24,435 bases of DNA, taken from positions 1 through 24,435 of the IMG/VR virus record IMGVR_UViG_2529293044_000006. One strand, written 5' to 3'. The position numbers were made by a program. This document shows, piece after piece, positions 5,922-8,661 of this stretch. The stretch's first letter is position 1; the number at the start of each line of letters is the position of its first letter. This DNA comes from a virus. Taxonomy: Duplodnaviria; Heunggongvirae; Uroviricota; Caudoviricetes.

Positions 5922-8661
5922 GCTGCTGCCTTAGCTTCTTCTTCGGCTTTAATCCGCGCCTGTTCCTCCTCATAATCAGTAAGAGGCTGGCGTGCCTTGG
6001 CTTTCAGCTCATCAAGGCGATCGCGCACTGTCTTGCGGTTGGCATCAATTAGCTTTGGAATTTCCTTCAGTTCAGCAACAAGGTCTTTGCCAAGACCATC
6101 GAGATATGTTTTCGTCTGCGCAACTTTATACGCCAGAGAAGCGATCTCCTTTCTGCCCTTTGCCGTTGTGATATCAGGCACAAAGGACATAACTTCACGT
6201 TCAACCTTTTGAAGGATTTCTTCAATCTGGTCGGCAGACTGAAATACAGTCATTGCATTTGCTTTTTCAATAACAACTAAATCTGTTACTTCACTCATAT
6301 ATCCTCCATCAAAAAAATTGCCCTCACATTGGAGGGCAAAGAAGATTTCCAATAATCAGAACAAGTCGGCTCCTGTTTAGTTACGAGCGACATTGCTCCG
6401 TGTATTCACTCGTTGGAATGAATACACAGTGCTTATTCGTACTAATAAAACACCCAATTTTCTGTTTCTTGGTTGTGTCCAAAGTTATATTCAATATCTG
6501 GTGTTGATGTATCAATATTCTTCATCCCATCAACAAGAGTTGATACAACAGCCAAATCTTGTTTGATTCTCATCAAATGGTATTTCTTTCGGCGCAATAA
6601 ACTTTCAATGGCAAGTTTCTTCGTCGGGAATGCAAAAGATCTTTCTGCATTTTTTGCTACTTTCTTAATTGCATATCTATTTCTCCTTTGTTTCCATTCC
6701 TGTAACCACTGATTTGGTGCTGGTTTAAAATTAACAATCCAATGCGCAGGAACCAACCATGCATAATGCTCTGTCTGATGAAAAGCTATATATTGAAGTG
6801 CGAATATTTTGATCCCATCTTCTTCAACTGTCGCCTGGAATCTCCAGAAAACAGGCATTCCATCATGTTCAGTTTCTGATTCAGGAAAAGGTACGCTCCA
6901 TGATTTTGTCATATCTCACCTCAAATAAGTGGTTTGCTGCCTAATTTCATTTTCTGGCGACCAACACAAGTCATCTTGCTGTCAGTTGTTTGGATTTCCG
7001 GTAGCCTGCCGCGTAAATGGCTACGTTTGGAAGACATACACCAGTTTCTGGTTGCTTATGTCCAAACTCATTCGCGTACACAATGGCCGCTCGCTCCAGA
7101 TTGCGTCTGTATTCTTTCTGTTGCCAGATCACGTCCTGTGCTATGAACTTAATTGGCTTAGCGTCTTCTATGCGCTCAGGCGTTTCGTGAGTACCTTTAG
7201 CCTGAATCTGCGCTCTGCTTAGAGTAGGGCGGTGTAATACTTCTGAACTTATTGCTTCTTCGCGGGCCAGTACGCCGTTAGCTAATGCCTTTGCCTTTAA
7301 ACGCTCACGACGACGAGAACGTGAATTGCCTTTGAACTGAGTTCTGCGTGTCATATAGACCTCCTGATGAACTTTGGTGGTGTGGTCGGTGGGAGACCCA
7401 TTTCGACCTGTTTCGGCCTACTTCAATTCGGCAATAGTCCCGCAGGCCTCGCCGCTTTACGTGCGACATATTCCCGTCCATGAACCCTTCACCACACCCC
7501 AAAGTTCACTTTGGTTATTGCGCTTTGTCAGCGCCGTAGATTCTTGCTTGAATCGTTGTATATTCACCGCCCTGGTGAGTAGTGCGTCCTGCTGATGTGT
7601 TTAGTATCACCGCCAGTGGTATTTGCGTCAACACCGCCAGAGATAATTTATCACCGCAGATGGTTATCTGTATGTTTTTTATATAGATTTATTTTTTTGC
7701 AGGGGTGTGTGGCTTGGGAGGTGATCGAGAGATCTGAATTGCGATGTTTAGTGAGTTGTATCTATTAATTTTCAAATAAATACAATTGGTTATGTGTTAT
7801 TGGGTGAAGGGGATCGTGAGGTAAAGAAAACCCGGCGCTGAGGCCGGGTTGTGTGTTACTTAAGAACGAGTCCGTTTAAGGCATCAAGGATTTTGGAAAC
7901 ATAACTTCCAAAAATGTAGGCGCAAAATGCGAACACGAAACTGACAACGACCGCAGATGCCTTGATGGTGATTTTTGCTGAGCTAATGCTTGTCTCAATA
8001 CCTGACAGACGAGAATCTACAGATTTTATATCTGACTTTACTTCAGCGAGATCGCGCTTGATGTATTCAACATCAGACTCTAGCTTTGCAACTCTAGCCT
8101 CAAGCATGTTACCTCCGCCGTTTCCTCCACCATGCCGTGAGTATGCATCATCAGTGGAATAGTGTCCAATTGGGCGAGATATGTTTTGATTTGGACGAAG
8201 CTGAGCAACCTTGTTATCTAAACTCATCGCGAACTGATCCTGTTATCTTCACGTCAAAAAACGAACTTTTTACATCAATTACTTCGCCTTTATCAGGATT
8301 AACCAGTGATGCTCTAACTTCGAATATCCCAGGCTTGATAATTTTCACCCTTGGGAAGTTAATTCTCATAGAAGTTGATACGATGGTTTCTCCATCGTTG
8401 GCTTCTGCTACCGTAAAAAACTTATGGTTGGAGTACAGTTTTGTGTCAATTGGTATCGGTATTTCTTGAGCATTGAAAACCTCAATGCCTATGGAATATT
8501 TTTTTGTAGCCTTAAGGCCGATAAAAAAAGCGCCAAATGATAGATCCACTTCATGGGAGTCTTTATCCATTTCATAGATAAGAACTGGAGTTACTGGGTT
8601 GCCTTCATCCATCGCAATCGGAATGATATAAGAAATACGTTCTTTAATCATTTACGTGTTA

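What the first reader, a model, noticed from the sequence alone, without database searches (positions are those of the whole stretch)
6400..6912. Unknown 156-aa gene immediately downstream of N, followed by a hairpin and terminator
In lambdoid phages the first genes after N in the PL operon are often host-takeover or anti-restriction functions (for example ral). This AT-rich ORF has a strong SD and no recognisable family. It is followed by a 9-bp perfect inverted repeat (6400-6427) and then an intrinsic terminator (6311-6339). It is a candidate early anti-defence or host-modulating gene.
Basis: inference. Interest (0 to 1): 0.45.

Follow-up and report, generated by a model that had tools for sequence, protein, structure and literature searches.

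The report
Unknown early gene beside phage N
This is a real, conserved phage gene (identical to the long-catalogued but never studied ORF L0079 of Shiga-toxin phage 933W) that is made together with the N antiterminator at the very start of infection; its function is still unknown and nothing here shows that it is an anti-defence gene.

Summary
ORF 6442-6912 (-) encodes 156 aa, is AT-rich (36.5% GC against 46.7% for the window) and has a strong ribosome-binding site. It lies 58 nt after N. A 14-bp hairpin (6398-6429) and an intrinsic terminator (6311-6339) follow it.

The protein is 100% identical to 933W L0079, the same ORF in BP-4795 and Min27, and 99.4% to H-19B's; in Phi24B the gene is vb_24B_11c. 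It occurs in 598 of 5,426 complete E. coli genomes and is always annotated "hypothetical". It matches PHROG 1636 (function unknown) and no Pfam, NCBIfam, PADLOC or PDB-sequence family.

The 933W-like block runs from the PL transcript start to the terminator T-run. N and this ORF therefore form one portable immediate-early transcription unit. Relatives at 71-83% identity sit directly after very different N alleles. Others are the first gene of an early operon, follow cro, or precede xis.

The most likely role is a dispensable early host- or nucleic-acid-binding accessory protein. Counter-defence is plausible from position only and was not tested.

The parts
7603..7631 (-). PL promoter (TTGACG, 17-nt spacer, GATACT) inside lambda/HK97-type OL operators
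   Evidence: Promoter scan. The sequence read matches the lambda PL hexamers (my knowledge of lambda PL). The immunity region is HK97/mEp234-like.
6311..7596 (-). Mosaic module shared with 933W at about 98.5% identity. It is the whole immediate-early leftward transcription unit, from the PL transcript start to the terminator T-run.
   Evidence: Pairwise alignment with 933W. Identity starts at TCAGCAGGACGCA just after the -10 hexamer and ends at the T-run. Megablast gives the same end point.
7520..7586 (-). nutL equivalent, containing the boxB-like hairpin GCGCTGACAAAGCGC
   Evidence: Coordinates transferred from the nutL annotated in 933W through alignment A3. Inferred, not tested.
6971..7354 (-). 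N antiterminator, 127 aa, 933W/H-19B type
   Evidence: Pfam N_peptide E 2.8e-15 and PHROG 271. Annotated as N in 933W.
6913..6970 (-). Spacer between N and the ORF, carrying the ribosome-binding site GAGGTGA. Its last ~45 nt are a remnant of the 3' end of a different N-like gene.
   Evidence: DNA alignment with L096, where the same sequence is the end of an intact 96-aa N-like ORF.
6442..6912 (-). The 156-aa ORF (933W L0079, Phi24B vb_24B_11c, PHROG 1636). Soluble protein of 18.6 kDa, pI 9.1.
   Evidence: Purifying selection. Confident AlphaFold model.
6395..6432 (-). Stem-loop 10 nt after the stop codon. Perfect 9-bp core at 6400-6427; 14-bp RNA stem at 6398-6429; no U-tract.
   Evidence: Present in 66 of 75 related loci with enough downstream sequence.
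6311..6339 (-). Intrinsic terminator (8-bp stem, 6-nt loop, T7), the positional equivalent of lambda tL1
   Evidence: Terminator scan. The stem is invariant and the loop variable across loci, and at least 10 different sequences follow it.

Best explanation
Shown: the ORF is a genuine protein-coding accessory gene of lambdoid phages, the orthologue of 933W L0079. It lies inside the first leftward transcription unit, which reads PL, nutL, N, this ORF, hairpin, intrinsic terminator.

Inferred from that layout: RNA polymerase leaving PL should transcribe it together with N before any antitermination. It would then be one of only two proteins made from the immediate-early leftward transcript. Once N acts, transcription reads through the terminator into whatever delayed-early genes the particular phage carries.

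Shown: the product is a soluble, basic 18.6-kDa protein. Its compact alpha/beta fold has a three-strand antiparallel sheet (residues 19-55), two short helices, a lysine- and arginine-rich strand-loop (74-97), a 33-residue helix (98-130) and an ordered acidic-aromatic C-terminal tail. The fold occurs only in phages.

Inferred, about 35-40% likely: the protein is dispensable and acts at the onset of infection or induction. It would do so by binding a host macromolecule (nucleic acid or a protein) through its basic face, to take over or disarm a host function. That is the same class of job as other occupants of the slot after N. It would not act as an enzyme or as a DNA mimic.

The hairpin most likely stabilises or marks the 3' end of the N-ORF message. 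The terminator is the tL1 equivalent.

The confidence given (0.38) is for the functional inference; the anatomical part (real gene, part of the N transcription unit, closed by a terminator) I hold at about 0.9.
For: Identity and reality of the gene:
- The protein is 100% identical to the ORF in 933W, BP-4795 and Min27, and 99.4% to H-19B.
- It occurs in 598 of 5,426 complete E. coli genomes.
- dN/dS is 0.04-0.18 wherever dS is not saturated.
- Forty residue columns are invariant across 22 homologues of 55-99% identity.

Transcription unit:
- No terminator-like site lies between N and the ORF, and a terminator follows the ORF.
- The block shared with 933W starts at the PL transcript start and ends at the terminator.
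- The terminator stem is conserved while its loop varies, and diverse genes follow it.

Early position in relatives:
- Directly after very different N alleles, overlapping or abutting the N stop codon (TGAGGTGAATATG, TGAGGATG), in L096 and L098.
- First gene of an early operon in L095 and in Salmonella phage NX263.
- Second gene after a Cro-like gene in Vibrio phage PvVp04.
- A terminator directly follows the gene in L096, L098, L083 and the Pectobacterium/Brenneria loci.

Accessory status:
- The same slot holds other genes in Sakai Sp5 and Sp15.
- The gene has a much lower GC content than its neighbours.

Protein:
- pI 9.1, with 17 Lys/Arg in residues 56-130.
- AlphaFold model with pLDDT 92.
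- The only fold matches are uncharacterised phage proteins, from both temperate and virulent phages.
- The close and distant subfamilies are homologous over 139 columns: hhalign 99.9%, E 7e-32.
Against: - There is no functional evidence of any kind.
- No similarity was found to any known anti-defence, takeover or regulatory protein, either by sequence or by fold.
- In L097 a terminator-like hairpin with a T-run lies between N and the homologue. In Pectobacterium and Brenneria the gene sits at the far end of the operon, just before xis-int. Immediate-early timing is therefore not universal.
- A basic protein of conserved sequence fits a regulator as well as it fits a host-directed effector.
- The transcription pattern is inferred from sequence, not measured.
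Confidence: 0.38

Rival explanations
1. The protein is a regulator of phage development that binds nucleic acid. It would tune the lysis-lysogeny decision, early transcription or N function, and would not target the host.
For: - Basic centre with conserved Lys/Arg, including KQRRNR...KKVAK and RRKKYHLMR.
- Always adjacent to master regulators: N or a Cro-like gene, in the slot where lambdoid phages usually carry cII.
- More conserved than the N alleles it follows: 71-83% identity against only short local matches between the N proteins.
- Early-region variation among Stx2 phages correlates with induction efficiency and toxin yield, by an unknown mechanism (10.1101/2024.03.06.583675).
Against: - No helix-turn-helix, ribbon-helix-helix or other known nucleic-acid-binding fold was detected.
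- The gene is absent from many lambdoid phages that carry similar N and nut systems, so it cannot be a core regulator.
- The family also occurs in virulent phages, which make no lysogeny decision.
Confidence: 0.3
2. It is a superinfection-exclusion or defence gene that protects the infected cell or lysogen against other phages, like sieB or rexAB in neighbouring slots.
For: - The same slot holds sieB in Sakai Sp15.
- The gene is AT-rich and moron-like, and is closed by its own terminator.
Against: - No promoter-like site lies between N and the ORF. It sits in the cI-repressed PL operon on the same strand, so it should be silent in a lysogen.
- It has no PADLOC match.
- It has no transmembrane segment, unlike SieB or RexB (sequence).
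- Homologues occur in virulent phages.
Confidence: 0.1
3. The functionally important element is RNA. The hairpin, a ~55-nt spacer and the terminator would form a 3'-UTR-derived small RNA or a processing (retroregulation) site that controls N and ORF expression. This does not exclude a role for the protein.
For: - The layout of 5' hairpin, single-stranded stretch, then terminator with a U-tail resembles Hfq-dependent sRNAs.
- The region folds far better than shuffled sequence, z = -5.8.
- The segment is conserved in 66 of 75 loci.
Against: - No Rfam family matches. The best hit, RyhB, scores 18 bits against a threshold of 55.
- The described EHEC prophage anti-sRNAs map to the PR' moron site, not here (PMC4104026).
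- No promoter-like site lies upstream.
- The hairpin is absent from about 10 loci that carry the identical gene, and from the diverged homologues.
- There is no covariation, because the copies are nearly identical.
- A 14-bp stem is short for RNase III (established knowledge).
Confidence: 0.1
4. It is a chance ORF or a decaying pseudogene.
For: It has no known function, and the window's PL operon is disrupted by IS elements just downstream.
Against: - It is intact at full length and identical to the copy in functional phages.
- It is under strong purifying selection.
- Homologues down to 55% identity, and a distant superfamily, keep the same length and motifs.
- The AlphaFold model is confident.
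Confidence: 0.01

Closest known systems
933W L0079 (AAD25424), Phi24B vb_24B_11c, the unannotated ORF after N in H-19B; PHROG 1636
   Same: 100% amino-acid identity to the 933W copy, about 98.5% nucleotide identity, and the same position between N and the terminator.
   Different: Only the flanks differ. Here the module is joined to an HK97/lambda-type immunity region, and the downstream gene is a coiled-coil protein truncated by an IS element rather than ssb/Ea10.
Lambda/P22 Ral and SieB, the known occupants of the slot after N
   Same: Position just downstream of N in the PL operon; non-essential and variable between phages. sieB occupies the slot in Sakai Sp15. The placement of ral comes from established knowledge of lambda and P22.
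   Different: No sequence similarity: the Pfam scan returned no hit to any characterised family at E up to 1. Ral is a 66-aa protein and SieB is a membrane protein transcribed in the opposite direction in Sp15. This ORF encodes 156 aa, is soluble and is co-directional with N, upstream of the first terminator.
Lambda tL1 (first leftward terminator)
   Same: It is the first terminator met by PL transcripts, so it defines the immediate-early transcript that N must override.
   Different: In lambda, tL1 directly follows N (established knowledge). Here an extra gene and a hairpin lie between N and the terminator.
PHROG 13631 and 25384, and uncharacterised proteins of Erwinia phiEa2809, Achromobacter phiAxp-3, Delftia RG-2014, Vibrio PvVp04 and Pantoea LIET2
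   Same: Same predicted fold and the same motifs (YR...G...ET.C; K..K...RFAF.TK..A...L..RK..Q..HLKR). Homology is established.
   Different: Only 19-28% identical. They lack the N-terminal SWxVPFPES extension and the NFGHNxETExW tail motif, and they occur in non-lambdoid and virulent phages. None has a known function.

Membership tests
PHROG 1636 / 933W L0079 orthologue group | Full-length match to the family profile, and identity to named members | tested here: met
   hmmscan E 2.7e-112 over positions 1-156 of 156. tblastn shows 100% identity to the ORF in 933W, BP-4795, Min27 and phage 86, and 99.4% to H-19B.
PHROG 1636 / 933W L0079 orthologue group | Conserved synteny: N, then the ORF, then a terminator, in the PL operon | tested here: met
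   Alignment with the annotated 933W record. The same order is found in L096 and L098; L097 keeps the N-then-ORF order but has no evident terminator after the ORF.
Wider phage superfamily (PHROG 13631/25384-like) | Significant profile-profile homology over most of the protein | tested here: met
   hmmsearch found 87 representatives at E <= 1e-3 among 1.84 billion proteins. hhalign gives 99.9% probability, E 7e-32, over 139 columns. All 40 aligned members hit PHROG 1636.
Known anti-restriction or anti-defence proteins (Ral, Ocr, ArdA, nucleotide sponges and others) | Sequence or fold similarity to a characterised member | tested here: not met
Known anti-restriction or anti-defence proteins | Relief of a defence system when the protein is expressed | not testable with these tools
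   This needs plaque assays. The gene is absent from the supplements of two accessory-gene screens.
Anti-phage defence or exclusion proteins (PADLOC models) | Match to a defence-system profile | tested here: not met
   The only match is a Cas1_II fragment at E 0.018 and 12 bits, a chance-level score.
Moron (autonomous promoter-gene-terminator cassette expressed from the prophage) | Own promoter upstream and own terminator downstream | tested here: inconclusive
   A terminator is present and the GC content is atypical. No sigma-70-like promoter lies between N and the ORF at the scan's threshold. Expression in lysogens was not measured.
Intrinsic (Rho-independent) terminator | GC-rich stem-loop immediately followed by a T-run; the stem is kept while the loop drifts | tested here: met
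   8-bp stem with 5 G-C pairs, 6-nt loop, T7. The stem is invariant across related loci while the loop shows at least six variants. Termination in vivo was not tested.
Rfam small-RNA families | Covariance-model score at or above the gathering threshold | tested here: not met
   No hit in the window at gathering thresholds. The best sub-threshold hit on the 3' region is RyhB at 18.2 bits against 55.

The most novel reading that the evidence does not exclude
The protein founds a new, phage-restricted fold family of immediate-early effectors. It would be made with N from the first leftward transcript and would use its basic face to neutralise a conserved host component: a defence sensor or effector, or part of the transcription-termination or RNA-decay machinery. 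In Stx phages it would then influence how well infection or induction succeeds, and so how much toxin is released.
Probability: 0.25. Interest if true: 0.6.

Novelty: already known. Interest (0 to 1): 0.33.

Why it matters
The gene sits in the regulatory core of the medically important Shiga-toxin phages 933W, H-19B, Phi24B and BP-4795. It is present in about 11% of complete E. coli genomes.

From the sequence layout it should be one of only two proteins made from the immediate-early leftward transcript. It has stayed a "hypothetical protein" for more than 25 years.

Variation in the early region of Stx2 phages is linked to induction efficiency and toxin yield, with no known mechanism (10.1101/2024.03.06.583675). 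An uncharacterised immediate-early protein is an obvious candidate to test.

The confident model has no solved structural relative, so a structure would probably add a new fold. None of this makes the finding surprising as it stands. It is a well-defined, cheap target for a knockout and a pull-down, not a discovery.

Tried and rejected
- **Family libraries.** Pfam, NCBIfam, PADLOC and PHROGs scans of the protein and of 40 superfamily members returned only PHROGs of unknown function.
- **PDB by sequence.** Searches with the single protein and with the profile found nothing below E 0.1.
- **Domain fusions.** The two long hits, P0059 and P0081, are repeat-protein artefacts.
- **Source names.** A profile search of the 5.8-billion-protein set returned "hypothetical" throughout.
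- **Conserved partner gene.** Neighbourhoods of 13 relatives share only the feature "early region of a phage".
- **Known prophage sRNAs.** The anti-sRNAs of Tree et al. lie at the PR' moron site. Sakai Sp5 and Sp15 lack this gene, so that data set cannot inform on it.
- **Literature.** Searches for L0079, vb_24B_11c and the peptide sequence found nothing relevant. The gene is absent from two accessory-gene screens.
- **Truncated lambda cI.** I first suspected this and rejected it: the immunity region is HK97/mEp234-type.
- **Search that failed.** The search for related loci with the distant alignment had no conserved stretch to search with. The scans with the close alignment returned near-identical copies or only 7 loci.
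Full report

Yes. The minus strand carries an ATG-initiated ORF at 6442-6912 encoding 156 aa. GAGGTGA lies three bases before the start codon.

The ORF is 36.5% GC (GC3 29%). N is 48% GC and the window 46.7%.

The gene 58 nt upstream (6971-7354) is an N antiterminator: Pfam N_peptide E 2.8e-15, PHROG 271.

Ten bases after the stop codon there is a perfect 9-bp inverted repeat at 6400-6427. As RNA it extends to a 14-bp stem with a 4-nt loop at 6398-6429.

About 55 nt further on lies a textbook intrinsic terminator: TTGCCCTC-CAATGT-GAGGGCAA followed by T7, at 6339-6311.

The whole 151-nt 3' region folds much better than shuffled sequence, z = -5.8. A 9-bp perfect repeat alone is not beyond chance: shuffles give 0.77 per window and 3 are observed. 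The hairpin is real, but its significance is positional rather than statistical.

**2. What is it?**

The protein is 100% identical to ORF L0079 of phage 933W and to the same ORF in BP-4795, Min27, Stx2 phage I and phage 86. It is 99.4% identical to the H-19B copy. In Phi24B the gene is vb_24B_11c.

It occurs in 598 of 5,426 complete E. coli genomes, with up to four copies per genome, and is always annotated "hypothetical protein". It matches PHROG 1636, of unknown function, at E 2.7e-112.

It matches nothing in Pfam, NCBIfam, PADLOC or PDB sequences.

It is a real gene:
- Homologues down to 55% identity keep their length and 40 invariant columns.
- dN/dS is 0.04-0.18 wherever dS is not saturated.

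**3. Anatomy of the locus**

Aligning the window with 933W shows about 98.5% identity. The identity begins at TCAGCAGGACGCA, immediately after the -10 hexamer of PL, and stops at the T-run of the terminator (one search gives the same end).

Upstream, the window has lambda/HK97-type OL/PL and an HK97/mEp234-type cI, whereas 933W has its own immunity region.

Downstream, 933W has ssb/Ea10. The window has a coiled-coil gene (PHROG 1376) that is cut off by IS elements.

Across 83 loci carrying the near-identical protein:
- The hairpin is present in 66 of 75 loci with enough downstream sequence.
- The terminator stem GCCCTC/GAGGGC is invariant, while its loop takes at least six forms.
- At least ten different sequences follow the terminator.

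The exchangeable unit is therefore the whole first leftward transcription unit: transcript start, nutL, N, this ORF, hairpin, terminator (6311-7596).

No terminator-like site lies between N and the ORF. I therefore infer that the ORF is co-transcribed with N before antitermination, and that this terminator plays the part of lambda tL1. This is inferred from sequence, not measured.

The last ~45 nt of the spacer between N and the ORF are homologous to the 3' end of a different N-like gene that is still intact in locus L096. The ORF evidently moved together with a piece of its former upstream neighbour.

**4. Relatives and their contexts**

Close relatives (55-85% identity) are confined to prophages and phages of Enterobacterales: Escherichia, Salmonella, Cronobacter, Pectobacterium, Brenneria and Rosenbergiella.

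| Locus or phage | Position of the homologue |
|---|---|
| L096, L097, L098 (71-83% identity) | Directly after N |
| L095, Salmonella phage NX263 | First gene of an early operon, before a ParB-like gene |
| Pectobacterium, Brenneria prophages | Last gene before xis-int |
| Vibrio phage PvVp04 | Second gene after a Cro-like gene |

In L096-L098 the N proteins share only short local matches with the window's N and with each other. In two of these loci the N stop codon overlaps or abuts the ORF's ribosome-binding site and start codon.

A terminator directly follows the gene in most of these loci. In L097 a terminator-like hairpin with a T-run lies between N and the gene instead, so immediate-early timing is common but not universal.

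A profile search of 1.84 billion representatives found only 87 proteins at E <= 1e-3. They are mostly 130-155 aa and have no extra domains. hhalign between the close set and a distant-only set gives 99.9% probability, E 7e-32, over 139 columns.

Distant members sit in early, recombination or replication clusters of temperate phages, and in early gene blocks of larger virulent phages such as Pantoea LIET2 and Klebsiella phi_KPN_H2. They have no recurrent partner gene.

Every name any source gives is "hypothetical".

**5. The protein**

It has a mass of 18.6 kDa and pI 9.1. The ends are acidic and the centre is strongly basic, with 17 Lys/Arg in residues 56-130.

With the 40-sequence alignment, AlphaFold gives a confident model (pLDDT 92, pTM 0.79) with these elements:
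- strands at 19-30, 33-46 and 50-55
- helices at 56-61 and 66-74
- a strand at 83-86
- a long helix at 98-130
- an ordered C-terminal tail

Superfamily-wide conservation falls on two motifs:
- a YR...G...(H)ET.C motif in the sheet
- a basic K..K...RFAF.TK..A...L..RK..Q..HLKR motif spanning strand 4 and the long helix

The nearly invariant Glu of the ET motif is Gln in this protein, which argues against catalysis. The pattern fits a binding surface for a nucleic acid or an acidic partner. That is inference.

**6. Most likely function and rivals**

| Explanation | Probability |
|---|---|
| Dispensable early effector that binds a host macromolecule (takeover or counter-defence) | ~0.35-0.4 |
| Nucleic-acid-binding modulator of phage development or early transcription | ~0.3 |
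| Exclusion or defence function | ~0.1 |
| RNA element in the 3' region as the main functional unit (not exclusive of the others) | ~0.1 |
| Spurious ORF | ~0.01 |

- **Early host-directed effector.** Support comes from early or immediate-early placement in three different operon layouts, accessory status, atypical GC content, and the known variability of the slot after N. That slot holds sieB in Sp15 and an unrelated ORF in Sp5; ral in lambda and P22 is established knowledge.
- **Regulator of phage development.** This fits the basic, conserved protein and its constant proximity to N or Cro. It fits poorly with the gene's absence from many lambdoid phages and its presence in virulent ones.
- **Exclusion or defence.** The gene has no promoter of its own and lies in the cI-repressed operon. 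It has no PADLOC hit.
- **RNA element.** There is no Rfam support. The described EHEC prophage sRNAs map elsewhere. The hairpin is missing from about 10 loci that have the same gene.
- **Spurious ORF.** Excluded by conservation and purifying selection.

**7. Comparison with the known, and novelty**

The feature is already catalogued. It is the same ORF annotated in 933W and present in H-19B. Nothing here places it in any functionally characterised family.

What this analysis adds:
- The module boundaries coincide with the transcript start and the terminator.
- The gene stays linked to divergent N alleles.
- It belongs to a rare phage-only superfamily.
- A confident predicted fold has no solved relative.

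I found nothing that raises it above the regulator alternative by much. The gene is not in the two accessory-gene screens I could search.

**8. Verdict**

The object is a long-known hypothetical gene. Interest is moderate to low (0.33), mainly because it should be one of only two products of the immediate-early leftward transcript of clinically important Stx phages and would be cheap to test.

Noticed in passing
window 2793-5855: Nested insertion sequences sit in the PL operon. An IS21-family element (istA 2793-3815; istB 3812-4336, with its C-terminal fragment at 5670-5855) is itself split by an IS3-family element (orfA 4390-4698, orfB 4695-5561). Together they cut off the coiled-coil gene that follows the terminator, so the delayed-early leftward genes are separated from PL. 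No complete E. coli genome in the collection has this junction.
   Followed up: partly
window 5906-6298 (-): The gene after the terminator encodes a coiled-coil protein (PHROG 1376/17211; annotated 'TolA' in some genomes). Only about 129 of about 362 residues remain before the IS junction.
   Followed up: partly
window 7856-8651 (-): Two unknown ORFs of 145 aa and 123 aa lie between cI and PL; the second has a hydrophobic C-terminal segment. A terminator at 7829-7850 closes them. This slot holds rexAB in lambda, gp48/gp49 in HK97 and HicAB in mEp234. Neither ORF has a Pfam or PADLOC hit. They are a candidate prophage-expressed cassette.
   Followed up: partly
window 6913-6970 (-) and L096 3940-4003: The spacer between N and the ORF is a relic of the 3' end of a different N-like gene. 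The out-of-frame reading ...MKLGSKPLI* matches the true C-terminus ...MKLSSKPLI* of the 96-aa N-like protein in L096.
   Followed up: yes
window 7596-7640 (-): The mosaic joint between the HK97/lambda-type OL/PL region and the 933W-type nutL-N block falls at the PL transcript start. The shared sequence begins at TCAGCAGGACGCA.
   Followed up: yes
L097 3767-4000: In this relative, a 234-bp spacer separates N from the homologue. It carries a terminator-like hairpin followed by a T-run (GGCTGCC...GCAGC TTTTTTT), and no terminator is evident after the homologue. The gene would be delayed-early there.
   Followed up: partly
window 15884-16843 (-): An LpxR-like outer-membrane lipid A deacylase gene lies inside the prophage on the strand opposite to its neighbours. 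It is a likely moron (phage 434 carries the same annotation).
   Followed up: no
window 11177-13057 (+): The replication gene encodes a 626-aa Toprim plus DnaB-like primase-helicase rather than a lambda P-type loader.
   Followed up: no
window 15801-15837, 16739-16772, 22794-22823, 23136-23167: Other long stems of 13-15 bp with G-U pairs allowed, found in the hairpin census. They are comparable to or longer than the one in the finding, and two of them flank the LpxR-like gene.
   Followed up: no
window 6312-6370 (-): A weak sub-threshold Rfam hit to RyhB (18 bits against a threshold of 55, E 3.7). It reflects only the terminator-like shape and is not a RyhB homologue.
   Followed up: yes
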